Positions 36,672-51,764 are shown, counted from the first letter of the stretch. The stretch is DNA of 64,000 nucleotides from an uncultured bacterium (GCA_963720265.1 CAVRET010000002.1:136704-200703); one strand, 5' to 3'. Translations and numbers: made by a program. Notes: generated by a model from the sequence alone, not told the origin.

Positions 36672-36710
36672 GTTGACATCGATTAGAAATGTGACTACAA
36701 TGTAATCACT

Positions 36711-36941
36711 ATGAAGGCATCGATTGTCACAATTGGTAATTCCAAAGGAATTCGAATACCTAAGCCACTACTGGAAGAGAGCGGACTTAAAGATAAAGTC
36801 GAAATCACCGCAGTTAAAGGCGAGATAAAAATCGTACCCCTCAAGGAACCAGTCGATCTTAGTTCAGCATTACTCGCCGAAGCAGCTTTAGGTGATTGGA
36901 ACAAGCCAGAAGAGAATGACGCGTGGGCGAATTTGCGGTAA
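36711..36941 (+). CDS. mazE: MazE/PemI (AbrB/SpoVT-fold) antitoxin
   Basis: ASIVTIGNSKGIRIPKPLLEESGL is a swapped-hairpin barrel DNA-binding motif. 76 aa. It overlaps the downstream toxin gene by 19 nt. Confidence 0.65.
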   Translation: MKASIVTIGNSKGIRIPKPLLEESGLKDKVEITAVKGEIKIVPLKEPVDLSSALLAEAALGDWNKPEENDAWANLR

Positions 36942-37252
36942 ACGAAGTCGTTTTAGTAATGTTCTCCTTCTCGAATCTCAAGGGACAAAAACTCAGACCC
37001 GCTCTTGTCGTTGCAAAAGCAGAATTTGGCGACTTGATTCTTTGCCAAATAACTTCGAAACCGTACTCAAGCAAAATCGCCATAGAATTGAACGCGAACG
37101 ATTTCGGCGATGGCCAATTGCCAATTACAAGTTATATCAGACCAGACAAACTATTCACTGCAGACCGAACCATTATTGCCAGCAAGGCAGGAACGGTTTC
37201 GGACGACAAATCAGCGAGGGTCACAGAAGCAATCCTCAATCTCTTTGCCTAG
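36923..37252 (+). CDS. mazF: MazF/PemK-family endoribonuclease toxin
   Basis: VVLVMFSFSNLKGQKLRPALVVAK ... ITSK matches the PemK/MazF signature. 109 aa. Confidence 0.7.
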   Translation: MGEFAVNEVVLVMFSFSNLKGQKLRPALVVAKAEFGDLILCQITSKPYSSKIAIELNANDFGDGQLPITSYIRPDKLFTADRTIIASKAGTVSDDKSARVTEAILNLFA

Positions 37253-37295
37253 AACGATTTTCGAACTATTTTGGCTTAAAGTAGACCAAACTGAC
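37243..37295 (+). repeat. Island repeat R2 (overlaps the mazF stop)
   Basis: TTGCCTAGAACGATTTTCGAACTATTTTGGCTTAAAGTAGACCAAA. The hairpin is TTTGG/CCAAA. Confidence 0.45.
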
Positions 37296-37304
37296 GCCAG
37301 TCGC

Positions 37305-37694
37305 TTATTTCGTAGAATCTAAAGTCGTCACTAAGCCAGATGCCAGACTAAGCAAAGGCTGATCTGACGTCATAACCTGCCATTTCTTTAGTTTAGCCAA
37401 GCCTACCAAAGCACAATCAAACGGATCAGAGTGATCAATCTCTACGCTCATCATGCTTGTAAGTTCATCCGCAAAGGGCCTATAGGCCTCTACCCCAAAA
37501 CGATCCAAAAATTCGCTTACCGGAGCATTAATCTCTAATTTTCGAATACGACGCTTAAGTTCAATTTCGAAAAGGGTCAACAAGCTGACAACTAATTCTT
37601 CATCTGCCGAGGCTAGGGTTTGCCTTGATTTTGGACCAAGGCGAGAATCCCCTACCATCCACCAAATCAACACATTGGCGTCAATTAGAATCAA
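37305..37694 (-). CDS. vapC: VapC PIN-domain toxin
   Basis: MILIDANVLIWW ... DPFD. 129 aa. Confidence 0.75.
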   Translation of the reverse strand: MILIDANVLIWWMVGDSRLGPKSRQTLASADEELVVSLLTLFEIELKRRIRKLEINAPVSEFLDRFGVEAYRPFADELTSMMSVEIDHSDPFDCALVGLAKLKKWQVMTSDQPLLSLASGLVTTLDSTK

Positions 37695-37700
37695 TTAAAC

Positions 37701-37949
37701 CTAGCTCTCACCTAACAACGCTTTGGCGACTAACTCATCCGTAGCTTTGCTAAATGCATCATTAGCAACTGATACTTTATCGCTCCAAGCTCCAAAAGCA
37801 TGAGCGCGATCAATTCTCTTCTCGGGCACTTTTGTTATCTTGTACTGCGCCTTCCCACGTGCACCAAAAACGACCTGCTCACCCTGATCGACTTTATTGA
37901 GCAGTTTAGACATATGTGTCTTCGTCTCGTGGATTGACAGAACTTTCAT
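37701..37949 (-). CDS. Phd/YefM-family antitoxin (VapB-like) partner of VapC
   Basis: MKVLSIHETKTHMSKLLNKVDQGEQVVFGARGKAQYKI matches the Phd/YefM N-terminal pattern. It ends 6 nt before the vapC start. Confidence 0.6.
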   Translation of the reverse strand: MKVLSIHETKTHMSKLLNKVDQGEQVVFGARGKAQYKITKVPEKRIDRAHAFGAWSDKVSVANDAFSKATDELVAKALLGES

Positions 37950-38029
37950 ATTTCTTAGTCTAATAGGCTAAGAATCCGCAGTCAATCGTTGTCACGCCCG
38001 CGCATCTCATAAAACACTCAGGGCTTCAC

Positions 38030-39614: not shown

Positions 39615-39691
39615 TGGCGGGCTCGACCGGATTCGAACCGGCGATCTCCTCCGTGACAGGGAGGCGTGTTAGGCCTCTACACTACGAGCCC
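39615..39691 (-). tRNA. tRNA-Asp (anticodon GTC)
   Basis: Reverse complement GGGCTCG-TA-GTGTAGAGG...CCTCC-CTGTCAC-GGAGG...CCGG-TTCGAAT-CCGG-TCGAGCCC-G-CCA. Confidence 0.85.
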
Positions 39692-39852: not shown

Positions 39853-40419
39853 CTAGTGATACCGGCTCTTCAGGTTCTCTCTCCCCCACTTGAGCGCCTT
39901 GGCCATCCAAATCAGCTCCTCGTACGAAGTCTCGATGTACTTCCGATACGCCGGGTCCGTTAGGTTGCCGTCAGCATCAAACAACTGCTCAATTTGCGGA
40001 AAATGCATATCAGTAAAGGTCGCCGCCAGCCCCAGCTCGCGCGTTGTCAGCGTCAGCGCCTCGATCGCCCGCACCCCTCCCCAGCGCTGGCTAGAGCACC
40101 CGGCAAATGCCACCGGTTTGTGAATGTAGTATTCAAGCTCCGAGTCGAGCATGCGCTTGAGCGAGCCCGGAAAGCTGTGGTTGTACTCCGGCGTCACAAT
40201 GAAGAACGCTTCCGAGCGCTTCACAATCTCGCCGTACCGCGGATCTTTACCCTCGGGATCATTGCCGTCACCCGGAAAGTTGAAATCCACCGGGTCCACA
40301 AACGTGATCTCCACTCCCGGCTGTTCCCGTCCGATCTCTGCTACTAACTTCGCAGCGTGAATCGACACCCGCTGGACCCGGGTTGTTCCGGCCAGTACGG
40401 CGATCTTAAGAGGCTGCAT
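39853..40419 (-). CDS. NADPH-dependent FMN reductase (flavodoxin-like fold)
   Basis: MQPLKIAVLAGTTR...FIVTPEYNHSFPGSLKRMLD is the typical FMN_red signature. Confidence 0.7.
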   Translation of the reverse strand: MQPLKIAVLAGTTRVQRVSIHAAKLVAEIGREQPGVEITFVDPVDFNFPGDGNDPEGKDPRYGEIVKRSEAFFIVTPEYNHSFPGSLKRMLDSELEYYIHKPVAFAGCSSQRWGGVRAIEALTLTTRELGLAATFTDMHFPQIEQLFDADGNLTDPAYRKYIETSYEELIWMAKALKWGRENLKSRYH

Positions 40420-40429
40420 ATTCCCTCCG

Positions 40430-41434
40430 TTATTGCTTAATGAAGACGTGAACCTTGGCCCTCTTGATCTGCCCTTGCATATAAGTGTTGAAGTCAGTCG
40501 TCTTCACCAGGATTTCCTGCGCATGAATTGAGCCGTCGGGGTTTTTGGCTATCACTTTGTAAACCGCATACCCGCCCGATACTTTCACCACGTCTGACAC
40601 CTGCCCCGGCTGCAGTGCATTCACTGCCGTCCACACATCACTCGGCACCTGGCTCTTGGTGAAGTTGCCCATGTCGCCGCCGTTTGCCGCATCAGTCGCT
40701 TGCGACTCCTTTTTTGCCAGTGTGGCAAAATCCGACCCACCCTTAATCTCGCTCAAAATGCTTTGCGCCTTAGCCTTGGCCGCTGCTGCCGCCGGTCCAT
40801 TCGTGACCGCGTTTTGCACATCTTGTTGCAACAGTTGCTCCCGGATTACTTTCTTGAGGTCATTCAGATTCCAGCCATAAACCTGATTAAGCATCTTGAG
40901 CAGTGTCGCCTGACCACCATACCGCTCATAAAACTGGCTCAACAGATTGTTAACGTCCTTGTCGCTCAGCTTCACGTGCTCCTGCCCAGCGAGTTGTGCC
41001 ACCAGCGCCTGCAGCTCCAACGTATTGAGCGACTGCTTCTTCATCGATGCCACCAGTTTTTTGCCACTCGCCGAGTTAAAGTTTACCGCCGCCTGGTTGT
41101 TGAGCTTGGAATTATACTGATACGCCCGCTCGTTCAGATTGAGCTGGAACAAATAATCGCTGTAACGTACCCAATGCCCGTTTACCGTCTCCACCGGATA
41201 TGGCACCACCTCTGCGGCTGCGTTAACGGCTGGATTATCACTCTGGTAGGCGTAAATCATGACCCCAAACAGCACCACGAGTATTACTGCCAGACCCACC
41301 ACTATACCTGCTACGATCATGGCTGGACGCTTCCAGCCGCGGTGCGCCTTGGACTCACTCGATGATTCAGTTGTCTCGCTTGGCATAAACTCCTTTATGG
41401 CCGCAGGCAGCTCACCGCCGGGCTCCGGCTTCAC
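40430..41434 (-). CDS. Membrane-anchored parvulin-type peptidyl-prolyl isomerase (PrsA/SurA-like foldase)
   Basis: N-terminal TM, a chaperone-like middle region, and a C-terminal PpiC domain (DFATLAKKESQATDAANGGDMGNFTKSQVPSDVWTAVNALQPGQVSDVVKVSGGYAVYKV). Confidence 0.6.
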   Translation of the reverse strand: MKPEPGGELPAAIKEFMPSETTESSSESKAHRGWKRPAMIVAGIVVGLAVILVVLFGVMIYAYQSDNPAVNAAAEVVPYPVETVNGHWVRYSDYLFQLNLNERAYQYNSKLNNQAAVNFNSASGKKLVASMKKQSLNTLELQALVAQLAGQEHVKLSDKDVNNLLSQFYERYGGQATLLKMLNQVYGWNLNDLKKVIREQLLQQDVQNAVTNGPAAAAAKAKAQSILSEIKGGSDFATLAKKESQATDAANGGDMGNFTKSQVPSDVWTAVNALQPGQVSDVVKVSGGYAVYKVIAKNPDGSIHAQEILVKTTDFNTYMQGQIKRAKVHVFIKQ

Positions 41435-41571
41435 ATGTGATTACAATGCTAACGTATGTATCTCGCGCTGTCGACCCAGGCTGTCCGACGATTTGCACCT
41501 TGCGGTCCGCTTGGTAGTTGGGTTTATAGTAGCCACATTGACAACTCCCTCAACCCGAGAGGCAGGCTCCA

Positions 41572-41970
41572 GTGTGGGTCCTACTATGGCGATGGTTCCG
41601 ACTGCTCGTACCAGTCCTGGGCGCGCAGTTCGCGATCCAGGCCGGCATCGAGTACCTCTGGCTCGACCGCACCTGGCACATGGGACGAATGTGGTTCAAC
41701 CTCGCGCTCGTGTCGTTCGTCATGATGCTGATAGTGATCTGGGTTAGTCGCATCAAGCGCGGATGGGTCTACATCCTGACGTTCATTATCCTCTTCTACG
41801 TCCTGCAAATTCAGCGGCAACTCCTCGAACCGATCATTACCAACGCGGCGATCCGCTGGCCCATCAACCAGCAACTGGCCTACTGCGGCGTAGTGATGGT
41901 AATGGCGCTCATCATCGCGACCCGCGTCGAGAGCCTATACCAGGACACCGAGGAAGTAATCTTCGGCTAG
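41572..41970 (+). CDS. Hypothetical membrane protein (132 aa, 3-4 TM)
   Basis: Hydrophobic ORF next to tRNA-Arg. No motif recognised. Confidence 0.3.
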   Translation: MWVLLWRWFRLLVPVLGAQFAIQAGIEYLWLDRTWHMGRMWFNLALVSFVMMLIVIWVSRIKRGWVYILTFIILFYVLQIQRQLLEPIITNAAIRWPINQQLAYCGVVMVMALIIATRVESLYQDTEEVIFG

Positions 41971-42072
41971 GACCCGCTCCGCGGTGCCGGAGACTATCAA
42001 GAGGGAGTGCCAATCACAAGCCGGTCGCGCGAATGCGGCCGGCTCCCTCTTTGCTATAATCGCTGTTAGCGT

Positions 42073-42148
42073 GCCCCGGTAGCTCAGCGGATAGAGCGTC
42101 TCCGTCCTAAGGAGAGCGTCGGGGGTTCGATTCCCTCCCGGGGCACCA
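42073..42148 (+). tRNA. tRNA-Arg (anticodon CCT)
   Basis: GCCCCGG-TA-GCTC-AGCGGATA-GAGC-G-TCTCC-GTCCTAA-GGAGA-GCGTC-GGGGG-TTCGATT-CCCTC-CCGGGGC-A-CCA. Confidence 0.85.
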
Positions 42149-43739
42149 ATGAAGCTTCTTCAGAACTACCGTCTAATAAAATAGGCTTAAGAGAAGCATT
42201 CCCATTGCCCGCACCGGCCGCCACCAGTTGGCGGCTTTTGGTTCGCATCACCGTAATCGTCTTAAACGGCTCCATGAGTACTGCTTCAGTAACGCCGCTT
42301 GGCACGTCCACCAGTACCCGCTCAAACAGGGCCTGGTTCATGCGCCGCCTTAGCATATCCGGAGCTAGCCGGTAGAAGCGGTCACAATCCTTCAACAGAT
42401 CGAGGGCCACTTGCAGTAAGCCTTCAACATCGGAAAACTGCTTCCGGGCACCTGCTAGTAGCCCTTCCGCTTGCTCTGACTCATGGTTAATACGCGACTG
42501 CTCTTCGGCTAACACATCTAGCTCAAGAGCGCCTGCATAATACGCCTGGAGCAATTTGGAGCGCTCCAGTTTGAGTTTACGCAACTTCTCGGCCTGGATA
42601 CGTTCGTCACGCTCATTTACTTCCTGGCGGCTTGTGAGCTGAACACGGATCTGTTCCTTTATCGCGCTAGCCTCGTCTTCGCTCAGCTTTAGCGTCCGGT
42701 AGTGCTCAACCAAGCTTTGTTCCGCATCTTCGGCCGCCACATATGGCAAGTCACACTCATGGCGATGCGGTCTAGCTGCGCAGAAGTAGTACAGGTACGT
42801 TTCCTTCTTTGCACTCGCTATACACATTCGTGACCCACACCGACCGCAATACAGAGTGCTTTTCAGATAGTGATTATGTCTGCGCTGCTTCTCGCCAGCC
42901 GACCGCGATTGCAATACCTGCTGCACTCGATTGAACAGCTCTTTCGGTACCAGCGGTTCATGCCGACCTTCGTACTCAACACCGCGATAGGTAATGACTC
43001 CGCAATAGTAGGCATTGTGCAGCAACTTTGCCAACACCTGGTGCCGTAGCACACGTCCATCAGTGCGCTTGCTACTGCGAGGTAATAGTCCTCGCGCGGT
43101 CATAATCTCGGCTAACTGTATTAATGAGTACTCGCCAGTGGCATACATCTCAAAGGCCAACTTCACCAATGGCGCCCTATGAGGGTCCACCACTACTGTG
43201 CGCACATCATGACCATCCACGGTAGCACTGGTATTAATATAGCCAACTGGCGCCAAAGTGAGTGTGCCACCGCTCTTGGCCTTTTGTGTCATGCCCTTTA
43301 TCACTTCGGTGGCCAAGTTCCCGGAGTAGAATTCGGCTATGGTCGCCATTATCCCATGGAGCAATCTTCCTGAGGGAGTGGCATCGATGTTCTCGGTCGC
43401 CGAAACTAACTGCGCCCCTGCTGCTCGAATGGCTAGGTTGATCGAAAAATCGTCATCCCGGTTCCGGGCCAGTCGATCCACCTTGTGAACCAGAACGTAG
43501 TCGATATCCTTATCTGCTTTGAGTTTGGCCAACATATCTTTGAGCCGTGGCCGGTCTGCAGATCGCGCCGATTCGCCACGGTCAATGTATTCGGCCACCA
43601 CCTCTGCACCAAGGCTATCAGCCTTGCGTCGGCAAGCCTCGCGTTGGGCCGGAATTGAATAGCCTTCCGGATCTTGATCTTTTTGAGCTTGTTCGAGCGT
43701 CGAAACGCGTAAGTAAATAACAGCTTTCTTCATAGGCAT
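42084..43739 (-). CDS. Large serine recombinase (resolvase catalytic domain + recombinase domain + zinc ribbon); the C-terminal ORF tail overlaps tRNA-Arg antisense
   Basis: The N-terminus AVIYLRVSTLEQAQKD...SIPAQREA...DRLARN is a serine-recombinase catalytic domain. A recombinase middle domain and LYCGRCGSRMC zinc ribbon follow. The last ~20 codons (REGIEPPTLSLGRRRSIR) are an antisense translation of the tRNA. Confidence 0.8.
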   Translation of the reverse strand: MPMKKAVIYLRVSTLEQAQKDQDPEGYSIPAQREACRRKADSLGAEVVAEYIDRGESARSADRPRLKDMLAKLKADKDIDYVLVHKVDRLARNRDDDFSINLAIRAAGAQLVSATENIDATPSGRLLHGIMATIAEFYSGNLATEVIKGMTQKAKSGGTLTLAPVGYINTSATVDGHDVRTVVVDPHRAPLVKLAFEMYATGEYSLIQLAEIMTARGLLPRSSKRTDGRVLRHQVLAKLLHNAYYCGVITYRGVEYEGRHEPLVPKELFNRVQQVLQSRSAGEKQRRHNHYLKSTLYCGRCGSRMCIASAKKETYLYYFCAARPHRHECDLPYVAAEDAEQSLVEHYRTLKLSEDEASAIKEQIRVQLTSRQEVNERDERIQAEKLRKLKLERSKLLQAYYAGALELDVLAEEQSRINHESEQAEGLLAGARKQFSDVEGLLQVALDLLKDCDRFYRLAPDMLRRRMNQALFERVLVDVPSGVTEAVLMEPFKTITVMRTKSRQLVAAGAGNGNASLKPILLDGSSEEASLVPREGIEPPTLSLGRRRSIR

Positions 43740-43826
43740 GTCCTCCCGATTAATGGATCAGGAGAGGATACCAGATCTGAAGCCGATGGAAAGAGGCGTT
43801 CTACAGATATAGCCTATAATGGAACC

Positions 43827-44078
43827 ATGAATTCTATCGATATTAGAATCTGGCCATCAGTGAGCCGTTACCCCAAGGGAGGTTGGGAACACGCCTATAC
43901 ACTGCCAGATGGCGGCAAAGGAGGTGGCGGTCATAGGAACGTAACTTTAGATCAGGCCAAATCACTTATCTCGACTACGCTCGCAGAAATGGGCTACGCG
44001 GACTATCAGCTCAACTTTATCGTTGGCGACATGGTATTTACGCCTCTAGGCGAGCACGATGATTCAGACTCTGCTTAA
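43827..44078 (+). CDS. Hypothetical protein (83 aa)
   Basis: TATAAT-like -10 at 43819-43824 and an ATG at 43827. No motif recognised. Confidence 0.3.
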   Translation: MNSIDIRIWPSVSRYPKGGWEHAYTLPDGGKGGGGHRNVTLDQAKSLISTTLAEMGYADYQLNFIVGDMVFTPLGEHDDSDSA

Positions 44079-44849
44079 CACCTCCATTACATGCTCAATC
44101 AGCTCAACCTGGAAGATACGCCGATGGTGAATTGGCAGGCGCTGGACGAGCTGGTCGATTACTGCCTTGCGGCTGTCATCTGGAACAAGAAATAGTACCT
44201 TCGGAAATACCCCGGTCTGATGCTGTTCGCGGCCTCTAGCCCAATACTTTGTGTAAGCATCAAGCTTTTGCCTCAGTTGTGGCCTGCGCTCGGTGCCCAA
44301 GTCCATCTCGATAAACCAGTAATAGGCATATTGACCAATATGCGTCTTCACATTAGCGTCCGGCCGCAGGAGCTGGCGCCCATAGACACCAACGTCCCGC
44401 CGAGGCTCAACTTGAAACGATTTAACGGTTAGCTTGTCTTCGCGCTCCAGCTCCTTTAGCCCCACGTATAACTCGGTAACGGCCAAAGCGTGACCGATAT
44501 ACTGCTCACCTGGGAGTTTCGGCGTCCTCACGGGTGATGTCCCACGACTCAGCAAGGCAATTGCCGGACGTGCCAGGGTAAGCACCATGCTAGCTGACCC
44601 GGCTCGTACACCCCCAACTTGTCGTGGTAAGCGAGTGATTATCCGTTGATCTGCCAATCGTTTAAGGATTCGAGCTGCCACACGTGTGTTACCAAGAGGG
44701 GTACCATCATATACATGAACTCGTTGTATCTGTCGGCTTGTAGCAAATCGTACTCGTAGTAGCGTCTTCAAAACTGCCAAATCACGTTCACTGAGCTCAT
44801 ATGCGTGCCTGTCTACGTAGGCGGTTATAGTACAGGATGTCATATACAT
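44064..44849 (-). CDS. Replication-relaxation family protein (plasmid/ICE-type)
   Basis: 261 aa. The N-terminal winged-helix LSERDLAVLKTLLRVRFATSRQIQRV and overall pattern resemble the Replic_Relax family of actinomycete integrative elements. The assignment is from pattern memory and is tentative. Confidence 0.45.
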   Translation of the reverse strand: MYMTSCTITAYVDRHAYELSERDLAVLKTLLRVRFATSRQIQRVHVYDGTPLGNTRVAARILKRLADQRIITRLPRQVGGVRAGSASMVLTLARPAIALLSRGTSPVRTPKLPGEQYIGHALAVTELYVGLKELEREDKLTVKSFQVEPRRDVGVYGRQLLRPDANVKTHIGQYAYYWFIEMDLGTERRPQLRQKLDAYTKYWARGREQHQTGVFPKVLFLVPDDSRKAVIDQLVQRLPIHHRRIFQVELIEHVMEVLSRV

Positions 44850-45341
44850 TCCTGTATATAAGTCACACGCGTACCTTTGCGTCCGGCACGTCCCCCAAGC
44901 GATTCAGCTTGTCTTGTGGACCACACGATTTGAATAGCGGTGCGAGCACTAATTCTTACTGCATTTATCTTCATATTCTGGGTCCTCCGCTTACTGAACT
45001 GGAGAGGATACCAGATGTGGGCACAAAAAATACAAAATCGCCGCCGGTAAACACTAAATAATGGCTGTACGTACAGGCATTAGGTTCATCCGAGAACAAT
45101 TAATTAGATAATGGTACATTTTGAAGAAATCACCGGTGAGGCTATAATGACATTACGCAATGAAAGTGCTTATGGTACATCATAAGCAGAGTAAGTTACG
45201 ACAGAAGGGAAATAGAACGAACATTATGTCTAGTTCTGACTAGTATTACCCGAAGGTAAAGGGGCTGCGAACGCAGCCCCTTTAAATTGCTCACGGAATT
45301 TTATTGCTTTAGGCTATGGTATAGGAAAAGAGAGACAACGG

Positions 45342-46244
45342 ATGATGATGCCAGACTGGGAAGACGTGCTCAAGTTCTTTCGAGATGTTTTCACTACCGC
45401 GATAGTCGAAAAAATTCTTGGTGTGGCAATTGGTGCGCTTATTGGAGCAGCCCTAGGTGGAGCAACAGAACGTGGAATTGCCCCAGAAATCGGCGGCGCC
45501 ATAGGTGCGATAGTAGGCTTCGTAACCGCCATGCTTGTCGTTCGTTCAAGAATAAAGAACGCAAAAAAGCCACCACAGATCACACTCTATCAACATATTA
45601 TTCACAGCTATGATAGTGAGCACAAACTCCGACGTGTGCGTGAGAAAAGACGCGTTAAAAACATGACCTCCGACAACATGGAATCGGTACGCGTAGGAAT
45701 TGGACCAGTCGGCCCAGATCTTCCTATTTACGTATCTACCGACACGCAGAAAATAGATGCAGCAAGGCAAGCTAAGCGCCCATATGGCGTGATCATGGCG
45801 ATTGATAGCGGCACTATTAACTATCGCGAGCAAGACCGGGATCCCATGACGCACGATATCCTGTTCGATTTTAACTTCGACTACCCATTACCAGGTCACA
45901 AGCGCCAAGAGGAGCATTTCATTTTCGAAACAACTTACTACGGAGAGTCGCATTACTACAAGCGAAATTATGTAAGCATACGACCACGAACAACTAGAAA
46001 AAAGGCGAGATTTACACTTGAGTTCACGGCTGATTCTCGCCCTCGTGGAGGGGTAGTCTACCCAACCAAATGGCCGTCAGGCCATGACGCGGAGGCCAAT
46101 GGAGATCGTATTGCTCACAAAAAGAAGATGGTGGATAGTGATAACCGATTGCACTATCGTTGGCCAGGCTGGCTTCTTGGAAGCCCAAATAAGAAGATAA
46201 CGTACGGTTTGTCTTGGGATCCTCCAACATCTCGGTCAACCTAA
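45342..46244 (+). CDS. Hypothetical membrane-anchored protein (glycine-zipper TM region, 300 aa)
   Basis: GVAIGALIGAALGGATERGIAPEIGGAIGAIVGFVTAML is followed by a basic soluble domain. No motif recognised. Confidence 0.35.
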   Translation: MMMPDWEDVLKFFRDVFTTAIVEKILGVAIGALIGAALGGATERGIAPEIGGAIGAIVGFVTAMLVVRSRIKNAKKPPQITLYQHIIHSYDSEHKLRRVREKRRVKNMTSDNMESVRVGIGPVGPDLPIYVSTDTQKIDAARQAKRPYGVIMAIDSGTINYREQDRDPMTHDILFDFNFDYPLPGHKRQEEHFIFETTYYGESHYYKRNYVSIRPRTTRKKARFTLEFTADSRPRGGVVYPTKWPSGHDAEANGDRIAHKKKMVDSDNRLHYRWPGWLLGSPNKKITYGLSWDPPTSRST

Positions 46245-46251
46245 GATTGCA

Positions 46252-47745
46252 CTAGAAAACTTTGTAAGAGGCGGCGGCACGTTTGTTCTGGAGCCGAATG
46301 CTCACTTGATAGCCGTGTTTGTTAAACAGATACATCAATTGCTCGCCATTAATGAGTGTTAACGGCTTGTCTTTGGCAAAGTCTCGGGCTTCGGGACCGT
46401 AGTAGCTGGTCGTCACCAAGATTCCCTTAACCGCACCCTCATTGAGCACCGTACCGTATAAATCGCGCACTGCGCTAACTGGAACGAGGTTATTGTAGCG
46501 CTTAGCCTGAATAACGAACTTGCCACCACGTATTGGGTCTGGGTCGTAGGCAATAGCGTCGACGCCTTCGTCGCGCGACGCTTGCGTTACTTCGACTTTA
46601 GCCCCGTCATTTCCAAACTCGCGCTGGAACAAATCGCGCACTAAGATCTCAAACTGTTGCCAGTCCATACTGGCTAGGTTCTGCGAGTCATCCACCGAGT
46701 CAAGCACCGCACTGGCCTCAATAATCCGCTTATCACTGGTGTTCATCTGAAGGATAGGCTTAACCGGAGCCAAGTTCACCAGGTTGCCAGCCGATACTCC
46801 TTTGAGGTGCCGGAAACAGTCTCTCGGACTAATGTGATCAAGTTGGAGCTCTTCAAACTCACGCCTATTAACCTGCAAGCTCAGTACACAATTTCGGAAT
46901 GCCTTTCCGGTCTGCGGGTCGAATCCTGAAACGTAGCCATTGAAACCGACCGTCACGACCGCGTTGGCGTAATCGGCACTAAACACTTCATGTAATGTCC
47001 GTAAGGCTATTTGATATAAGGTCGAATTATAGAACTCCTCGAATTCGCGCTGCTTCATCTCTTTCGCAACAGAGGCATCCTTGCTCGGGGAGTAAGCGTA
47101 CTCAGTCACCCGTGGTACCCGATCGGTATTGGGTAGCTCCACCTCCACAAGCATGAGCTTACTTTGCGGCTCGTACTGCACTTGAGGAGCCAGACTTAGT
47201 GAAGACGGGTATTTTGACAGCACCAAGACGCGCTGGATGTACTTCAGGACTGCCGCAGGCGTCTTGCTCTCATAAGCGGCTTTCATCCTGTCGACTTTCT
47301 TGTTGTGCTCAACTTGCTCAGCGAGGTAAAGCTCCTTGTCTTTCTCGTAGGCCCTCTGAGCTTGGTCAAAGGCTTTCTTTGCTTCTTCTTCTGCAATCTG
47401 GTGCTTTGCTTTCATGCCAGGCACCAATCCCGAGAGCTTGGAAAAATGTGGCGCAAATTCGTCCCATTGAGGCGGCTTCTTGAACGATTCCTTATCGTAC
47501 AATTCATCCCAATTGAGCTTATTCTCGTGCAATAGCGCTGTGGCCAACAACTGCTGAAAGGCCGAGATGTCAGCTTGAGCATGCGTCGACATATTCTGGG
47601 ATTTTGCTCGACTTAGATCCTTTTCCCAACGCTTCTGCAACACCAAAAGCTTATTGGCAACCACCGCCTGGGTACTCCCAGTTACGGTTACCGTTTCACC
47701 AGTTACTGGATGAGTGACTGTTTTGTAGTAAGACATACGACTCAT
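46252..47745 (-). CDS. Fusion protein: about 330 aa domain of unknown function (coiled-coil-rich) + C-terminal Mrr-cat (PD-(D/E)xK) restriction-endonuclease-like domain
   Basis: C-terminus WQQFEILVRDLFQREFG...KVEVTQASRDEGVDAIAYDP...KFVIQAKRYNNLVPVSAVRDLYGTVLNEGAVKGILVTTSYYGPEAR follows the Mrr N-terminal catalytic-domain pattern (D...E.K in ..D..A....V.QAKRY). Confidence 0.55.
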   Translation of the reverse strand: MSRMSYYKTVTHPVTGETVTVTGSTQAVVANKLLVLQKRWEKDLSRAKSQNMSTHAQADISAFQQLLATALLHENKLNWDELYDKESFKKPPQWDEFAPHFSKLSGLVPGMKAKHQIAEEEAKKAFDQAQRAYEKDKELYLAEQVEHNKKVDRMKAAYESKTPAAVLKYIQRVLVLSKYPSSLSLAPQVQYEPQSKLMLVEVELPNTDRVPRVTEYAYSPSKDASVAKEMKQREFEEFYNSTLYQIALRTLHEVFSADYANAVVTVGFNGYVSGFDPQTGKAFRNCVLSLQVNRREFEELQLDHISPRDCFRHLKGVSAGNLVNLAPVKPILQMNTSDKRIIEASAVLDSVDDSQNLASMDWQQFEILVRDLFQREFGNDGAKVEVTQASRDEGVDAIAYDPDPIRGGKFVIQAKRYNNLVPVSAVRDLYGTVLNEGAVKGILVTTSYYGPEARDFAKDKPLTLINGEQLMYLFNKHGYQVSIRLQNKRAAASYKVF

Positions 47746-47801
47746 ATGATTACCTCACGGCTCATCATAGCAAAAATCATGCAAACGACCATAAGACCGA
47801 T

Positions 47802-48665
47802 CTACTTCACGAGCTTAATCTGTCTCGCATAATGATCAATCCAAGCAGGCATCTTGGGCTCGGCCTCGTGAAAGATGTAGTGTTTGACCTGCCTGGTTAT
47901 CTCCCACTGGTAGGCAAATACTGCCCGGCACGACCGGACCATGCCTTCAACGTCAGTTGAGCCGTCTATTGATACGTCAATCCGTTCTGGCGATTCCTTA
48001 ATTACTGAAGCCAATTCGATGGGATCAGCATGGCTGCCGCCAGAGAAGAACGGGTATAACCGATCGTATAGCCGCACCATCGTCATAGTTTTCTTGCCGA
48101 TCCGATGATACTTCTGATTATAAAAATCAATAATCTCGCAACGTTGCTTCAGGCTGAAGCCTTTAGTGCGTGTGACCGGTGTCGTCTTGGCGGGGTTTAT
48201 CACTTCCGGGATTGCATCCGGCCACTTTGGGTAATCGAGAGCCACGGTACTCTCGATGTCTAGTAGCCGATTCTTGTGTTTAGCAAAATCCTCATCGGAC
48301 ACGTGTCCGTCACTATGGAGGACGGCCAACATCTCGATTCGCTTCCGCTCGCTGGTCATAATCATATATTTGGCATAGACCAATGACCTACAGCAGTAGA
48401 TTAATCGGACATTGATCCAGATCTCGAACAACGTTCGCGCTAAGGTGTAGCTAACACGAAATTGCTTGCTGTCGGCTAAACTGGTTATCCCTTGGACTTG
48501 GGCAATCGCCGAGATAAATAGTGTTAGTAAATAGCCATCTCGACCTAGCGAGTAGACATCGATCTTGGCCTGTTCCATCTCTTTGAGGAGTACAAACCCG
48601 TAGCCATGAAGTTCCTTGAGGGCGTGGATAGCTTCAACAAGTTCACGCTCAGCATCGGTTTGCAC
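47802..48665 (-). CDS. Hypothetical protein (287 aa), middle gene of the accessory operon
   Basis: No recognisable motif. 15 nt gap to the upstream gene and 56 nt gap to the downstream gene, all on the same strand. Confidence 0.3.
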   Translation of the reverse strand: MQTDAERELVEAIHALKELHGYGFVLLKEMEQAKIDVYSLGRDGYLLTLFISAIAQVQGITSLADSKQFRVSYTLARTLFEIWINVRLIYCCRSLVYAKYMIMTSERKRIEMLAVLHSDGHVSDEDFAKHKNRLLDIESTVALDYPKWPDAIPEVINPAKTTPVTRTKGFSLKQRCEIIDFYNQKYHRIGKKTMTMVRLYDRLYPFFSGGSHADPIELASVIKESPERIDVSIDGSTDVEGMVRSCRAVFAYQWEITRQVKHYIFHEAEPKMPAWIDHYARQIKLVK

Positions 48666-48680
48666 GGCTCTGTCCCATCG

Positions 48681-50240
48681 CTAGTCTTTGGCCTTGGCGT
48701 CGGAGTCTGCCATCTCAATCAGGCGATCTGCGAAATGATTCCAGCTAATGTTATCTTCACCGACAGCGGTCTTTATCTTATTCGCCGTCGCGCGCAGTTG
48801 CTCCGGATCATCAGAGATCCATCCTAGCTTCTTAAGGAGCGCCACGGTCTGATCTTCCTGAGCCGCAGTCTTTTCGGCATATTGCTTTTCTGCCTCCTGC
48901 TCAGACCCGACTGGTGTCCACTCGGCGCCCACGCGGCTCACATGGCCAAACAGCCGCCATCGGCCAAGACCTTCTTTAAACACGGCAAAGTTAGGATTGG
49001 GATCAGCCAAGTATCCAGAGTACACCCACAGGATCACAAACTTTGCAAATAAGATCGTCTCGACATCCGGAAATAAGTCCTCAACAGTGGCCTGAACGGC
49101 CTGTTCGTTGATCTCGTTAGCATAGGCCCACAAATCCCGCACCCAAAAGAGGAACAGGTTGGCTACCGTTTTGGTAATTACCGGCCTCTCGTCCACACTG
49201 GCAACGGTTACCCGCCACTCGGCGGGGATCGCGTCCTTCAGCACATAACTGCTATCACCAGCCTTAAAGAATAGTGCCCGCATACCAGGCATCAGCAATT
49301 GGCCGATGCGGCCATCCTGGACCTTAGATAGTGGTATGGCTAACAAAACCTCACGTACGGCTTCGTCGTAGTTGTCTTCGGTAGTAAACCGTTCAATCAC
49401 AACCCGGACTACTTGGGTGGCGTGTACAAGATTACCGCCGGCATAGAATCGCTTATCAGCAAACAGCTTCTTCAGTCCACCGTCGTTCCAGCTGGCCCAG
49501 AGCGTGATTGCGTCGCACTTGCGCAAGAAGTTATACAGGATAACCCAGAATGTGTGCCTGGCCACGCCCGACTTCTTGTCCTCAGTTAGCGCCGTCATTG
49601 CCCAAGATAAGAGCTGCTTAAGCGTAGAATCTTCATCTAGCTGCAATGTCCACGGTCTAGACTCGGCTACGGAAGTGCCGTCTGACTTGGCATCGGAACT
49701 GGCAATCGTAGCGGTTACAAGCTCGCCCATGATGTCCCGTTCCGGCAATGCCGTTCCCGCGGGGCGTAGAGCTTTAAGATCGTAAACGTATATCGGCTTC
49801 TTATAGAACGATACCCAGATCACATAACCAAGAAGCCACAGCCCAAATATCAGATCTGCGTAGAAGAGTGCCGTGTGACGGCTGAAGAGCGGCAGGATGC
49901 ATGTCCCAAACAGAAAGACCACCAGGTTGCCAACTGGCTCATGGAGATACCGAAGGCGGTTCTCTCGAACCCACTCGTCGTCGAGAGGCGTCCGTTTAGC
50001 CAAATTGTGGGTCGCAAATTGCTGTCTCCAGATCTCAATGGCGATTGGGATGAACACGGCCATCACTGCCGTCGCCAACGCCAAGTAATCCACGATCTGG
50101 TCGGTGCCGATCTCAAAATGGTAACAGCCAGCACTGCCACAAACGGCCCGCCCAAACTGAACCATTAATGTATACAGAGCTACATCTGCAATCAGGGCTA
50201 GGAGCCACAAATACGGCCGCCTTTCTGGTTTCCGTTTCAT
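48681..50240 (-). CDS. Hypothetical membrane protein: 4 N-terminal TM helices + about 370 aa soluble domain
   Basis: Hydrophobic segments within the first about 150 residues. No motif recognised in the remainder. Confidence 0.35.
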   Translation of the reverse strand: MKRKPERRPYLWLLALIADVALYTLMVQFGRAVCGSAGCYHFEIGTDQIVDYLALATAVMAVFIPIAIEIWRQQFATHNLAKRTPLDDEWVRENRLRYLHEPVGNLVVFLFGTCILPLFSRHTALFYADLIFGLWLLGYVIWVSFYKKPIYVYDLKALRPAGTALPERDIMGELVTATIASSDAKSDGTSVAESRPWTLQLDEDSTLKQLLSWAMTALTEDKKSGVARHTFWVILYNFLRKCDAITLWASWNDGGLKKLFADKRFYAGGNLVHATQVVRVVIERFTTEDNYDEAVREVLLAIPLSKVQDGRIGQLLMPGMRALFFKAGDSSYVLKDAIPAEWRVTVASVDERPVITKTVANLFLFWVRDLWAYANEINEQAVQATVEDLFPDVETILFAKFVILWVYSGYLADPNPNFAVFKEGLGRWRLFGHVSRVGAEWTPVGSEQEAEKQYAEKTAAQEDQTVALLKKLGWISDDPEQLRATANKIKTAVGEDNISWNHFADRLIEMADSDAKAKD

Positions 50241-50300
50241 GCTTCCAGACTAGCACAATGAATCCTATCTGGTAACAGATAGCGATTAATTCAAGAGGCT

Positions 50301-50573
50301 TTAGCCCATAAAGCCAGCATCACGCAACCGCTTCGCCACAGTTTCGCGGTCAATACCAAACTGAAGCGCCAGAGTGTACGGAGCAATGCCGGACCGATAT
50401 GCCGCGATCAACTTATCCATATCCAGGTTCAGCAGCGCTGGGGAGCGTAGTGGCTTGCGCTTCGTGCCCTGTGTGACACAGCTCGCCGCCGTCAGTGCTG
50501 AAAGATCGTGGTGTAAGTGCTGGAGGCTCTCAAGCCTTAAATCCTCCTGAAGCTGACAGATCAGGCGCACCAA
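50301..50573 (-). CDS. Small resolvase-type HTH (HTH_7-like) DNA-binding protein, 90 aa
   Basis: MDKLIAAYRSGIAPYTLALQFGIDRETVAKRLRDAG resembles the C-terminal HTH of Hin/resolvase proteins. No catalytic domain. Confidence 0.45.
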   Translation of the reverse strand: MVRLICQLQEDLRLESLQHLHHDLSALTAASCVTQGTKRKPLRSPALLNLDMDKLIAAYRSGIAPYTLALQFGIDRETVAKRLRDAGFMG

Positions 50574-50578
50574 AAATT

Positions 50579-51172
50579 ATGAAGACCAGATTTTTACTCC
50601 ACGGCGGCAGGGTCAAACTTTCCGACGAGCGCAACGACCGGTTCTTTCGCGAGCTGGTGAAAGATCTTGCCGACGGTGACCAGGTGTTGTCGATCGGCTT
50701 TGCCCAACGCGACGAGACCGTCCGGCAGAAATACTTCGAACGGGACAAGGGCTTTCTTTTAGCGCAAACCAAAGCCGACATTAATGTTATCAATGCCACG
50801 TACGACGACTTTATTGAGCAAATTGGAGCCTCCAAGTCCGTCTACATCACCGGAGGAGACTGCCCAGAACTCGTAAAAAACATCCAGCGCTACCAAGATT
50901 TCGATTCTCTCCTGCGCGGCAAGGTAATTGGCGGAACTTCGGCCGGGGCATGTTTATTCGCAGCCTATTACCTAAATCTTCCCGAGCCCGAGGTCATGTC
51001 GGGCTTAAGCGTATTCCCAATCCGACTCATGGTCCATTATGGCAACTCTGAATTCAACTCAACAGACAAGACATTACAGGTTTTGCAGCATGCCCACCCT
51101 GAGCTAGAACTGCTTCGCCTTCGTGAGTGCGAAAGACACCCCCACGGAGCAAGCTCCGTGGTTGTCACTTAG
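50579..51172 (+). CDS. Peptidase S51 (PepE/cyanophycinase-like, class I glutamine-amidotransferase-like fold)
   Basis: Start reassigned to MKTRFLLHGG. VYITGGDCPELV and VIGGTSAGACLF (the Ser nucleophile motif GxSAG) are present. The 3' end runs into the IS200 terminal hairpin. Confidence 0.5.
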   Translation: MKTRFLLHGGRVKLSDERNDRFFRELVKDLADGDQVLSIGFAQRDETVRQKYFERDKGFLLAQTKADINVINATYDDFIEQIGASKSVYITGGDCPELVKNIQRYQDFDSLLRGKVIGGTSAGACLFAAYYLNLPEPEVMSGLSVFPIRLMVHYGNSEFNSTDKTLQVLQHAHPELELLRLRECERHPHGASSVVVT

Positions 51173-51705
51173 GGCACCAGCTTCAGTTGGTACGATTTGG
51201 CCTGAGTGGGTCGGTGCTTACCTTGTTGCTCAACATACGTCTTTATAACTCCTTCCAACGGACCGTCAGAGACGGTCCTAATGTAATAGCCGACACTCCA
51301 CATCGCACCGCCCCACAAGAACTGTTTGACTTCGGGAAACTGGACAAACAAGGCCCGTGCGCTCTTGCTTTTTAAGATCTGTACCAACTTCTCTGGCGCG
51401 ATTTTTGGATGAGCACCTATAAATACATGGACATGGTCGTCATCGGTGCCAACAGCTTCCAGCTCCCAGTCGTAAGCCTGGGCTATCTCGACAAGCACCC
51501 GCTTTAAGTATTGGCTGCGGTTGGCTAGCAGTACCTTGCGTCGAAGTTTGACACCCCATACCAAATGGTACCGAATCTGATACCGACAGTGGGCACCGAT
51601 TTGAACGTCCATACCACCATTGTGCTAATGAAAGACTGCTGTGTCCACCAGAGGCGGACAGGTGCTCGCCGGCGCTATCCCTCCCCGGAGCAAGCTCCGG
51701 GGTTC
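51136..51705. mobile_element. IS200/IS605-family element, intact
   Basis: Subterminal hairpins CCACGGAG-CAAGC-TCCGTGG (51141-51161) and CCCCGGAG-CAAGC-TCCGGGG (51683-51702) share the same loop and flank a full-length tnpA. Confidence 0.6.
51169..51612 (-). CDS. tnpA: IS200-family transposase TnpA (Y1 HUH)
   Basis: 147 aa with YHLVWGVKLRRKVL, the HUH motif HVHVFI, and a C-terminal catalytic Tyr region (WSVGYYIRTVSDG). Confidence 0.8.
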   Translation of the reverse strand: MDVQIGAHCRYQIRYHLVWGVKLRRKVLLANRSQYLKRVLVEIAQAYDWELEAVGTDDDHVHVFIGAHPKIAPEKLVQILKSKSARALFVQFPEVKQFLWGGAMWSVGYYIRTVSDGPLEGVIKTYVEQQGKHRPTQAKSYQLKLVP

Positions 51706-51764
51706 CTCGCGGGGTTAATGGATCGAAAAAACCGCCGAGATATAAGACCAACTATCTTGATGAA

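What the first reader, a model, noticed from the sequence alone, without database searches (positions are those of the whole stretch)
42073..51720. Integrative element inserted at tRNA-Arg(CCT): serine recombinase overlapping the tRNA 3' half, replication-relaxation protein, AT-rich origin-like region, cargo, and an IS200 at the far side
The 551 aa large serine recombinase gene converges on tRNA-Arg, and its last codons are an antisense read-through of the tRNA 3' half. This is the geometry expected when an integrase-proximal attachment site reconstitutes a tRNA end. Downstream lie a Replic_Relax-type protein, a 490 bp AT-rich non-coding stretch (44850-45340) with a perfect hairpin (AAGGGGCTGCG-AAC-CGCAGCCCCTT at 45256-45286) and short repeated ATGGTACAT motifs, then membrane and unknown cargo genes.

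I could not identify a duplicated tRNA fragment marking the far boundary, so the right-hand end is uncertain.
Basis: partly seen in the sequence, partly recalled or inferred. Interest (0 to 1): 0.65.

Follow-up and report, generated by a model that had tools for sequence, protein, structure and literature searches.

The report
Self-splitting serine integrase at tRNA-Arg
An 8.4-kb mobile element sits at the very end of a tRNA-Arg gene in a tiny Saccharibacteria-type genome, and integration cuts its own serine-integrase gene in two, a design described for archaeal virus integrases but, as far as I could find, not for this enzyme family.

Summary

- **Empty site.** A public contig (L084) is 99.8-99.96% identical to the flanks. 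It joins window 42149 directly to 50564. The insert is therefore 8,424 bp, bounded by a 7-bp core GCACCAA at 42143-42149 and 50567-50573. This core is C72, the discriminator, CCA and one further base of tRNA-Arg(CCT).
- **Outside the element.** The S51 peptidase gene lies on the host side. So does the IS200, by position.
- **No tRNA fragment is duplicated.**
- **Split gene.** attP lies inside the recombinase gene. Joining the two element ends rebuilds a 620-aa ORF, which exists unsplit in relatives (P0002, P0030). When integrated, 532 element-encoded residues (catalytic, recombinase and zinc-ribbon domains included) read on into 19 antisense-tRNA codons. The last 88 codons (helix, basic linker, helix-turn-helix) are stranded at 50301-50566.
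- **att site.** A 52-nt block over it is 100% conserved against 69.6% identity for the whole gene.
- **Family.** In 72 of 80 related genome loci an antisense tRNA sits at the recombinase 3' end.

What the C-terminal swap does (a directionality or commitment switch) is inferred, not shown.

The parts
42073..42148 (+). tRNA-Arg(CCT), the integration target; intact both in the occupied and in the empty state
   Evidence: ARAGORN. Rfam tRNA, 60.9 bits. The flank that contains it aligns to the empty-site contig L084 at 99.96% over 2,274 nt.
42143..42149 (.). attL core GCACCAA (C72, discriminator A73, C74 C75 A76, plus 1 base). The predicted crossover dinucleotide is AC at 42145-42146.
   Evidence: It is the only sequence shared by attL, attR, attP and attB. 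The crossover position is inferred from the family-wide symmetry centre.
42150..42171 (-). P arm of attP, lying inside the recombinase coding sequence (codons ...SSEEAS). It carries the GTTCTGAAG motif.
   Evidence: It is part of the 52-nt exact-identity run with the unsplit gene on L003, which starts 22 nt before the core. Family members carry GGTTYGAA at the same place.
42084..43739 (-). Integrated form of the large serine recombinase gene (551 aa). Residues 1-532 are element-encoded. The last 19 residues and the stop codon are antisense tRNA read-through (42084-42143).
   Evidence: Pfam Resolvase 4e-33, Recombinase 4e-14, Zn_ribbon_recom 1e-9. PDB sequence matches to the TP901-1 integrase N-terminal domain and the A118 integrase C-terminal part. 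Translation. pN 0.047 against pS 0.668 versus L002.
44064..44849 (-). Replic_Relax protein (261 aa), the candidate replication or relaxase function of the excised circle
   Evidence: Pfam PF13814, 3e-31. The same family lies next to the recombinase in L088, L089 and several Actinomycetota loci.
44850..45341 (.). Lower-GC intergenic region between divergent genes. It holds a sigma-70-like promoter (45121-45148, + strand) and a 12-bp-arm palindrome (45258-45283). It may be a leader, a small RNA or an ori/oriT; this is untested.
   Evidence: Sequence. Promoter scan, 10 of 12 matches. RNA fold of 45150-45295 gives z = -3.98. No Rfam family matches.
45342..46244 (+). Cargo: 300-aa protein with two N-terminal transmembrane segments, function unknown
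   Evidence: Only weak Pfam hits. Hydropathy scan.
46252..47745 (-). Cargo: Mrr-type type IV methyl-directed restriction endonuclease (497 aa)
   Evidence: Pfam Mrr_cat 4.5e-30. PADLOC mREase_IV 2.1e-65.
47802..48665 (-). Cargo: DUF5677 protein (287 aa)
   Evidence: Pfam PF18928, 2.2e-9.
48681..50240 (-). Cargo: 519-aa protein with about four N-terminal transmembrane segments and no family match
   Evidence: No hit in Pfam, PADLOC or NCBIfam. Hydropathy scan.
50301..50566 (-). Detached C-terminal part of the recombinase gene (88 codons plus stop): long helix, basic linker, three-helix HTH. The P' arm of attP is 50543-50566.
   Evidence: It continues the unsplit proteins P0002 and P0030 exactly after '...LV'. 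The same stand-alone fragments occur at attR ends in relatives: P0121-P0126, L085, L087. AlphaFold2 model, HTH region pLDDT about 80. Pfam HTH_7 E 0.11. pN 0.20-0.31 against pS 0.68-0.83.
50567..50573 (.). attR core GCACCAA, the right-hand end of the element
   Evidence: L084 alignment breakpoints. Junction table.

Best explanation
**What it is.** Window 42143-50573 is an 8,424-bp integrative element in the roughly 1.1-Mb genome of a Saccharimonadia (candidate phyla radiation) bacterium. It has a recombinase and a Replic_Relax protein but no recognisable transfer genes, so it is at best mobilizable.

**How it got there (inferred from the junctions).** A large serine recombinase inserted it by recombining a roughly 50-bp attP with an attB formed by the 3' end of tRNA-Arg(CCT). 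Strand exchange falls inside the 7-bp core GCACCAA, most probably at the A73-C74 dinucleotide. The tRNA is therefore never interrupted and no tRNA fragment is duplicated.

**The unusual feature (shown by comparison of sequences).** attP lies inside the recombinase ORF.
- The circular form encodes a 620-aa enzyme: the recognised serine-integrase domains plus an 88-aa C-terminal helix, basic linker and HTH module.
- Integration separates the last 88 codons, which end up at attR (50301-50566).
- The remaining 532 codons are fused to 19 meaningless antisense-tRNA codons.

**What the split does (inferred).** The cell makes a different recombinase before and after integration, and excision restores the full gene. 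I think this remodelling acts as a built-in directionality or commitment switch: the HTH-bearing form serves the attP x attB reaction or auto-regulation, and the HTH-less form is what is available for attL x attR.

**Family context.** The element belongs to a large recombinase clade. In that clade the arm of attP that lies in the coding sequence mimics a tRNA T-arm, and members target the CCA end of many different tRNAs.
For: **Empty site.** Contig L084 matches window 39876-42149 (99.96%) and window 50564-51161 (99.83%), joined at ...GGGGCACCAA|AAATTATG.

**attP.**
- The unsplit homologue on L003 reads agttctgaagaagcttcaTTGGTGCgcctgatctgtcagcttcaggagg. That is the exact join of the window's two element ends.
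- The reconstructed circular-form gene is an open 1,863-nt frame.
- It is 69.6% identical to the L003 gene overall. The longest exact run is 52 nt and sits exactly over the att site; the next longest run is 14 nt.

**Protein continuity.** P0002 (79% identity, 624 aa) and P0030 (50% identity, 657 aa) continue after 'LV' into the same HTH module that the window encodes at 50301-50573.

**Stand-alone C-terminal fragments.** They occur at attR ends of related elements, all with the same P' arm.

**Selection.**
- N-terminal part: pN 0.047 against pS 0.668.
- C-terminal fragments: pN 0.20-0.31 against pS 0.68-0.83.

**Family survey.**
- 72 of 80 genome loci have an antisense tRNA at the recombinase 3' end, and 70 ORFs read into it.
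- Eleven tRNA identities are used.
- The attL logo over 64 loci shows GGTTYGAA at -19..-12, mirroring the T-arm.
- Mirror symmetry peaks only at GT (+3/+4): 10.2 of 24 positions against 3.9-7.3 at other centres.

**A second element of the same kind in the same organism.** It sits at tRNA-Val(TAC).
Against: - No circular junction of this exact element was found. attP comes from a 79%-identical relative, and that 3.5-kb contig could be an episome or the inner junction of a tandem array.
- The role of the C-terminal module is entirely inferred. Its HTH is generic: Pfam HTH_7 E 0.11 and no significant fold match.
- Some family members seem to end shortly after the core without an HTH (P0031, P0017, P0034). 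A large C-terminal swap is therefore not universal in the clade.
- I could not find far-end fragments in the 80 mostly Actinomycetota loci.
- The crossover dinucleotide is inferred from symmetry, not measured.
- No recombination directionality factor was identified.
Confidence: 0.85

Rival explanations
1. The element runs from the tRNA to the IS200 (42073-51720). The attachment site near the integrase rebuilds the tRNA 3' half, and a duplicated tRNA fragment should mark the far end.
For: The recombinase ORF does overlap the tRNA. GC returns to flank level only near 51.7 kb.
Against: - The empty-site contig carries the S51 peptidase gene up to window 51161, joined directly to the tRNA.
- Only 7 bp are shared between the junctions.
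- No tRNA-derived repeat exists in 41.9-54 kb.
- Independent contigs break at the IS200 palindromes, as expected for a separate multicopy insertion sequence.
Confidence: 0.02
2. 'Suicidal' integration, as in archaeal SSV-type integrases. Splitting the gene inactivates the recombinase, so the element is locked in and can leave only if an intact copy supplies the enzyme in trans or a tandem array rebuilds the gene.
For: - The topology is the same as in SSV-family integrases, where attP lies in the ORF and the target is a tRNA (Badel et al. 2020, PMC7253208, abstract read).
- Most family members in databases are in the split state.
- The N-terminal part and the C-terminal fragment show discordant divergence. 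The window's N part is 91% identical to P0001, but its C fragment is only about 62% identical to P0125 from the same sample.
- L088 carries an extra stand-alone C-terminal fragment next to an unsplit gene.
Against: - Unlike SSV integrases, the retained N fragment keeps every recognised serine-integrase domain.
- It is under strong purifying selection between two integrated copies: pN 0.047 against pS 0.668.
- A nearly identical strain has the empty site, so gain or loss was recent.
Confidence: 0.2
3. Incidental overlap. attP merely happens to overlap the 3' end of the gene because the element is compact. The C-terminal module is a dispensable appendage and the swap has no functional consequence.
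For: - Some clade members appear to end within 5-30 residues after the core without an HTH (P0031, P0017, P0034/P0048/P0055).
- The antisense-tRNA tails vary in length and are clearly meaningless.
Against: - The C-terminal fragments keep open frames and a conserved HTH in every integrated copy examined, with pN well below pS.
- The module is retained in two lineages only about 50% identical to each other.
- The coding-sequence arm GGTTYGAA is conserved at the DNA level across the clade.
Confidence: 0.25
4. A dead remnant. The element is no longer mobile, and the presence/absence difference arose by some other deletion.
For: No excised form of this exact element was recovered. No transfer genes are present on the element.
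Against: - The breakpoints coincide to the base with the core shared by attP in a relative.
- All element ORFs are intact.
- The rejoined recombinase frame is open.
Confidence: 0.04

Closest known systems
Large serine recombinases / serine integrases (phiC31, Bxb1, A118/LI, TP901-1)
   Same: - The same three domains: Resolvase, Recombinase and zinc ribbon.
- The RVS motif, which aligns to the start of the Resolvase profile where the catalytic serine lies.
- Short att sites (about 50 bp) with no long direct repeat.
- The integrase gene sits at the edge of the element.
   Different: - The target is the 3' (CCA) end of a tRNA gene. This was called rare or unreported for this enzyme class (PMC3218068; PMC7192596).
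- attP lies inside the integrase ORF.
- There is an extra C-terminal HTH module, which integration removes.
- No close relative exists among deposited phages or plasmids: best 23-34% identity.
SSV-family 'suicidal' tyrosine integrases of archaeal viruses and plasmids (SSV1, pT26-2; Badel et al. 2020, PMC7253208)
   Same: - attP lies within the integrase ORF.
- Integration partitions the gene into an N part and a C part at opposite ends of the element.
- tRNA genes are the targets.
- There are hints that the N and C parts have different evolutionary histories.
   Different: - An unrelated enzyme family (serine, not tyrosine recombinase) and bacterial hosts.
- The split falls after all catalytic and core DNA-binding domains, so the N fragment is probably still an enzyme rather than a pseudogene.
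- The crossover is at the extreme 3' end of the tRNA, so no tRNA sequence has to be supplied by the element.
Integration-dependent immunity of cluster G/N/P mycobacteriophages (Broussard et al. 2013; from my own knowledge, not checked here)
   Same: attP is placed inside a phage gene, so integration changes that protein's C-terminus and thereby its activity. This is a precedent for integration acting as a switch at the protein level.
   Different: There the remodelled gene is the repressor and the integrase is a tyrosine recombinase. Here the remodelled gene is the recombinase itself.
Actinomycete integrative and conjugative elements with serine recombinases in tRNA-Leu (Ghinet et al. 2011, PMC3218068)
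   Same: Serine-recombinase-driven elements at tRNA genes in Actinomycetota. They are probably the same recombinase clade, since tRNA-Leu targets occur among the 80 loci.
   Different: I did not test whether they belong to the same clade. The passages of that paper I retrieved do not mention an ORF-internal attP, a gene split or T-arm mimicry. The window element also lacks the FtsK/TraB-type transfer gene and the Rep families that define those elements.

Membership tests
Large serine recombinase (serine integrase) | N-terminal resolvase-type catalytic domain with the nucleophilic serine | tested here: met
   PF00239, 4.3e-33, residues 6-158. R11 and S13 of the RVS motif are near-invariant, and D88, R89 and R92 are conserved in alignment A1. 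Sequence match to the TP901-1 integrase N-terminal domain, 1.8e-11.
Large serine recombinase (serine integrase) | Recombinase domain followed by a zinc-ribbon domain | tested here: met
   PF07508, 4.1e-14, and PF13408, 1.1e-9. Cysteines C298, C301, C320 and C329 are invariant. Match to the A118 integrase C-terminal part, 2e-9.
Large serine recombinase (serine integrase) | Coiled-coil motif inserted in the zinc-ribbon domain, which governs directionality | not tested
   Residues of about 350-470 are conserved in the alignment, but I ran no coiled-coil prediction and no full-length structure model.
Large serine recombinase (serine integrase) | Short att sites (about 40-50 bp) with exchange at a 2-bp centre and no long duplication | tested here: met
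   7-bp shared core and 52-nt conserved attP block. The family symmetry centre falls at one dinucleotide. The 2-bp stagger itself cannot be measured in silico.
Large serine recombinase (serine integrase) | Catalyses attP x attB recombination | not testable with these tools
   Needs an in vitro or in vivo assay.
Integrative genetic element (genomic island) at a tRNA gene | Presence/absence polymorphism with base-precise junctions | tested here: met
   Empty site on L084 against the occupied window.
Integrative genetic element (genomic island) at a tRNA gene | A direct repeat of a tRNA 3' fragment at the distal end, as in tyrosine-integrase islands | tested here: not met
   No tRNA-derived repeat is present. 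Only GCACCAA is shared.
SSV-type 'suicidal' integrase | attP inside the integrase ORF, and the gene is partitioned by integration | tested here: met
SSV-type 'suicidal' integrase | Tyrosine recombinase fold and an archaeal host | tested here: not met
   The domains are those of a serine recombinase. The host is a Saccharimonadia bacterium.
SSV-type 'suicidal' integrase | Both gene fragments are inactive after integration | tested here: inconclusive
   The N fragment keeps all recognised domains and is under purifying selection. Its activity is unknown.
Integrative conjugative or mobilizable element (ICE / AICE / IME) | A conjugative transfer module (type IV secretion system or FtsK/TraB-type translocase) | tested here: not met
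   No such hit among the element's proteins in Pfam, PADLOC or NCBIfam. The sister elements L088 and L089 do carry a coupling-protein-like gene of 760-768 aa, matched only at 'faint' or 'weak' level.
Integrative conjugative or mobilizable element (ICE / AICE / IME) | A replication or relaxase function | tested here: met
   Replic_Relax PF13814, 3e-31. Its activity and its origin site are unknown.
IS200/IS605 element as part of this island | Lies between the att sites | tested here: not met
   tnpA at 51169-51612 is about 600 bp beyond attR. Host sequence up to 51161 is on the empty-site contig.

The most novel reading that the evidence does not exclude
A widespread bacterial clade of large serine recombinases is the serine-family counterpart of archaeal 'suicidal' integrases. 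At least 569 loci among species-representative genomes belong to it, mostly Actinomycetota, plus Saccharimonadia, which are known as epibionts of Actinomycetota.

- Each enzyme carries attP in its own ORF.
- The arm in the coding sequence mimics a tRNA T-arm (GGTTYGAA).
- Exchange occurs at the discriminator/CCA junction, which lets the clade hop between tRNA identities.
- In at least the Saccharimonadia-type lineages, integration swaps off a C-terminal HTH module. This swap works as an intrinsic, cofactor-independent directionality switch.
- It also allows the N and C parts to be shuffled between elements through tandem arrays.
Probability: 0.35. Interest if true: 0.85.

Novelty: new variant of a known kind. 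Interest (0 to 1): 0.7.

Why it matters
- **Directionality.** How serine integrases choose between integration and excision is a central question, both for their biology and for their use as genome-engineering tools. Known answers rely on separate directionality proteins. Here the act of integration itself changes the enzyme, giving a natural pair of proteins (620 aa and 551 aa) with defined 50-bp sites that can be tested directly.
- **Site recognition.** The clade shows how a serine integrase can use the most conserved parts of tRNA genes (T-arm and CCA end) without damaging them, and how specificity moves between tRNAs. That is relevant to mining integrases with predictable landing sites.
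- **Hosts.** It documents active, defence-carrying mobile elements in roughly 1-Mb Saccharimonadia genomes. Their recombinases have their closest relatives in Actinomycetota, the usual hosts of these epibionts, which hints at gene flow between partner and host.

Tried and rejected
- **Genome scan with the flanking PPIase**: no close relative among species representatives.
- **Exact-pattern scans:** the attB/attR right half and the attP junction against metagenome contigs, and attP against viral contigs. All gave zero hits. The collection does not even hold L003's sample, so this is uninformative.
- **Megablast of the element** against plasmids and phages: nothing.
- **tblastn of the rebuilt 620-aa protein**: only generic serine recombinases at 23-34% identity.
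- **Profiles of the C-terminal fragment** searched against six-frame translations of the 80 genome loci: no far-end fragments. Those elements probably exceed the 10-kb flank.
- **De novo search for 'YTGGTG + ORF' candidates**, clustered across loci: recovered only internal pieces of methyltransferase and Replic_Relax genes.
- **Symmetry analysis of the single attP and attB**: inconclusive. It became clear only with 64 family sites.
- **A suspected frameshift in the window's C-terminal linker:** rejected. The gaps are multiples of three and the heptad-like pattern is kept.
- **The 83-aa ORF at 43827-44078 as a directionality factor:** no family hit and not conserved in L002. Dropped.
- **Profile search of 1.84 billion representative proteins with the C-terminal fragment**: mostly returned tandem-HTH proteins, showing that the HTH is a generic type.
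- **Foldseek of the fragment model**: no significant match. The top weak hits are Sin, gamma-delta and Tn3 resolvases and Fis.
- **Rfam on 39-54 kb**: only the tRNAs.

Full report
**1. What is at the coordinates.**
- ARAGORN and Rfam both find tRNA-Arg(CCT) at 42073-42148 on the + strand.
- A 551-aa ORF at 42084-43739 on the - strand has the three domains of a large serine recombinase: Resolvase 4e-33, Recombinase 4e-14, Zn_ribbon_recom 1e-9. Its sequence matches the solved TP901-1 and A118 integrases.
- Behind it lie:
  - Replic_Relax (44064-44849);
  - a 490-bp lower-GC spacer;
  - a 300-aa protein with 2 predicted transmembrane segments;
  - an Mrr-type type IV restriction enzyme (PADLOC mREase_IV 2e-65);
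  - a DUF5677 protein;
  - a 519-aa membrane protein with no family match;
  - a small ORF at 50301-50573;
  - an S51 peptidase gene;
  - an IS200 transposase;
  - NDK.

**2. The boundaries.**
- Looking up the flanking PPIase by exact sequence returned a 2.9-kb contig from another sequencing run, L084 (ERR10755945).
- One part of L084 aligns to window 39876-42149 at 99.96%. The rest aligns to window 50564-51161 at 99.83%.
- The join reads ...GGTTCGATTCCCTCCCGGGGCACCAA|AAATTATGAAGACC. This is the empty site.
- The insert is 8,424 bp. The only sequence present at both junctions is GCACCAA, at 42143-42149 and 50567-50573: the last acceptor-stem base, the discriminator, CCA and one further base.
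- The tRNA is never broken and no tRNA fragment is duplicated.
- The S51 peptidase gene (ATG at 50579) belongs to the host.
- The IS200 is outside by position. Two independent short-read contigs end inside the palindromes that flank it (51161 and 51696), as expected of a separate multicopy insertion sequence.

**3. The recombinase gene is split by integration.**
- The protein ends '...SSEEASLV-PREGIEPPTLSLGRRRSIR'. The tail is simply antisense tRNA.
- A homologue with 79% identity (P0002, 624 aa, contig L003) is colinear up to 'SLV'. It then continues 'RLICQLQEGG...GIDRETVAKRLRDFG'. The window encodes that same continuation on the - strand at 50573-50301.
- At the DNA level L003 reads agttctgaagaagcttcaTTGGTGCgcctgatctgtcagcttcaggagg. 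This is exactly the window's left element end joined to its right element end through the core.
- Joining the window's two ends gives an uninterrupted 1,863-nt ORF of 620 aa.
- Against L003 this gene is 69.6% identical overall. It contains one 52-nt exact run, placed from -22 to +30 around the core; the next longest run is 14 nt. That is the signature of a roughly 50-bp attP under DNA-level constraint.
- A second unsplit relative (P0030, 50% identity, 657 aa) has the same arrangement and the same kind of C-terminal HTH.
- Stand-alone copies of the C-terminal fragment, each starting at the core, lie at the far (attR) ends of related elements. Next to them are NDK and the same host genes as in the window (P0121-P0126, L085, L087). 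All share the arm GCGCCTGATCTGTCAGCTTCAGGAGG.

**4. Nature of the detached module.**
- AlphaFold2, with a shallow alignment and mean pLDDT 68, predicts three parts: a long helix (residues 2-29), a disordered basic linker, and a three-helix bundle (residues 51-84, pLDDT about 80).
- Pfam gives only a weak HTH_7 match (E 0.11).
- Foldseek finds nothing significant. The top weak hits are small serine recombinases (Sin, gamma-delta, Tn3) and Fis.
- A profile search of 1.84 billion representative proteins shows that the HTH is of a common type, often found in tandem arrays.
- The fragments are not decaying: frames are open, the HTH is conserved, and pN is 0.20-0.31 against pS 0.68-0.83.
- The N-terminal 532 codons are under strong constraint between two integrated copies (pN 0.047, pS 0.668).

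**5. The family.**
- A scan of one genome per species returned at least 569 relatives. Of the 80 best loci, most are Actinomycetota; there are also Thermomicrobiales, Fimbriimonadaceae and Saccharimonadales.
- In 72 of the 80 loci an antisense tRNA sits at the recombinase 3' end, and 70 ORFs read into it. The tRNAs are Arg 24, Val 14, Ala 10, Leu 6, Ser 5, Pro 4, Glu 4, Met 2, and Gln, Tyr and Lys 1 each.
- Aligning 64 distinct junctions on the CCA end gives this consensus: ...gGGTTtGAAtgaGaa.a.TT|TGGTGccCcCGGcgGGAcTCGAACC.
- The coding-sequence arm thus carries a conserved GGTTYGAA. It is the mirror image of the T-arm box, at equal distance from a centre.
- A mirror-symmetry score peaks only at the dinucleotide GT (A73-C74 on the tRNA strand): 10.2 of 24 positions against 3.9-7.3 at all other centres.
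- I infer that this is the crossover. I also infer that the clade recognises the T-arm and acceptor end of tRNAs, with a mimic of it built into its own gene.
- The conserved 'G-S/L-x...LV' residues near the C-terminus are probably shaped by this DNA constraint.

**6. Limits of the generalisation.**
- I could not find far-end fragments in the 80 loci within 10 kb.
- Some clade members appear to stop soon after the core.
- A large HTH swap is therefore shown only for the window's lineage and for the P0030 lineage.

**7. Host and context.**
- The window's ThrRS is identical to a protein on a 1,108,292-bp NCBI/ENA contig. Its nearest named relatives (75-77% identity) are Saccharimonadales, Saccharimonadia and 'Patescibacteria group'.
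- The same contig encodes the window's recombinase (P0128), the C-terminal fragment (P0121) and a second clade member, P0008.
- P0008 overlaps an antisense tRNA-Val(TAC). It is preceded by an HTH protein, an N6/N4 methyltransferase, Replic_Relax and a coupling-protein-like gene. This order is syntenic with the element that carries unsplit P0030.
- The recombinase plus Replic_Relax module is therefore shared. The window element is a small version with no transfer gene, carrying a restriction enzyme as cargo.

**8. How it most likely works.**
- *Shown by comparison:* the insertion, the core, the ORF-internal attP, the two protein forms, and the clade-wide tRNA-end targeting.
- *Inferred:*
  - The recombinase made from the circle (620 aa) carries out attP x attB at A73-C74.
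  - After integration the cell can only make the 551-aa form, without the HTH and with a junk tail.
  - Excision by that form, possibly with an unidentified cofactor, rebuilds the full gene.
- I favour the reading that this remodelling biases direction or commitment (about 0.4-0.5).
- The alternatives are that the truncated enzyme is dead, as in archaeal suicidal integrases (about 0.2), or that the appendage is dispensable (about 0.25).

**9. Comparison with the literature.**
- Full-text searches found serine-recombinase use of tRNA genes described as rare (Ghinet et al. 2011, PMC3218068) or as not reported previously (Mageeney et al. 2020, PMC7192596).
- ORF-internal attP with gene splitting turned up only for archaeal SSV-family tyrosine integrases (Badel et al. 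2020, PMC7253208).
- I found no description of this arrangement for a serine recombinase. The library is incomplete, so this is absence of evidence.

**10. Verdict.** This is a real and recently mobile element.

Noticed in passing
window 51130-51715: The IS200-type element (tnpA 51169-51612) is flanked by two similar palindromes in direct orientation: CCACGGAGCAAGCTCCGTGG at 51142-51161 and CCCCGGAGCAAGCTCCGGGG at 51683-51702. Two independent short-read contigs (L084, L001) end inside them, so the IS is probably multicopy. Its left end overlaps the last codons of the S51 peptidase gene.
   Followed up: partly
L089 10001-11698 (same organism, Logan ERR11523669): A second element of the same clade. 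Its recombinase P0008 reads into antisense tRNA-Val(TAC). It is preceded by an HTH_3 protein, an N6/N4 methyltransferase, Replic_Relax and a 768-aa coupling-protein-like gene. Its far end was not reached.
   Followed up: partly
L088 13644-14018: About 1.7 kb downstream of the unsplit recombinase P0030 lies a stand-alone second copy of the C-terminal module. It is 87% identical at the DNA level, and the similarity starts exactly at the core TGGTGCAC. This suggests tandem or nested elements and possible shuffling of the N and C parts.
   Followed up: partly
L002 / L087 (JGI sample 3300085340) versus the window: The recombinase N part is 91% identical to the window's. The C-terminal fragment from the same sample is only about 62% identical, and its core reads TTGGCGC instead of TTGGTGC. 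Either the two contigs come from different elements, or the two gene halves have different histories.
   Followed up: no
window 45121-45295: A good sigma-70-like promoter (TTGAAG-16-TATAAT) is followed by a roughly 130-nt region that folds unusually well (z = -3.98). It ends in a strong hairpin followed by TTTAAATT, just upstream of the 300-aa membrane-protein gene. It could be a small RNA or an attenuating leader. No Rfam family matches.
   Followed up: partly
L085 4186-9985: In a related organism the stretch between NDK and the element's attR end holds a Y1 transposase and two DDE transposases. The region downstream of this tRNA-Arg is therefore an insertion hotspot.
   Followed up: no
L004, L005, L006, L017, L018, L031, L032, L035, L038, L043, L048, L076-L078 (within about 0.4-8 kb upstream of the recombinase): N6/N4 DNA methyltransferase and Replic_Relax genes recur next to clade recombinases in Actinomycetota loci. 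The recombinase, methyltransferase and Replic_Relax module is thus shared across phyla.
   Followed up: partly
window 36500-38000: A low-GC patch (0.43-0.45 against about 0.55 around it) with short ORFs, about 1.6 kb from tRNA-Asp (39615-39691). It might be another piece of foreign DNA.
   Followed up: no
window 1-64000: There are eight tRNA genes in 64 kb, and the source contig is 1.1 Mb. Together with the closest ThrRS relatives this points to a reduced Saccharimonadia genome. NDK here is unusually long (213 aa) and matches the Pfam NDK profile in two stretches.
   Followed up: partly
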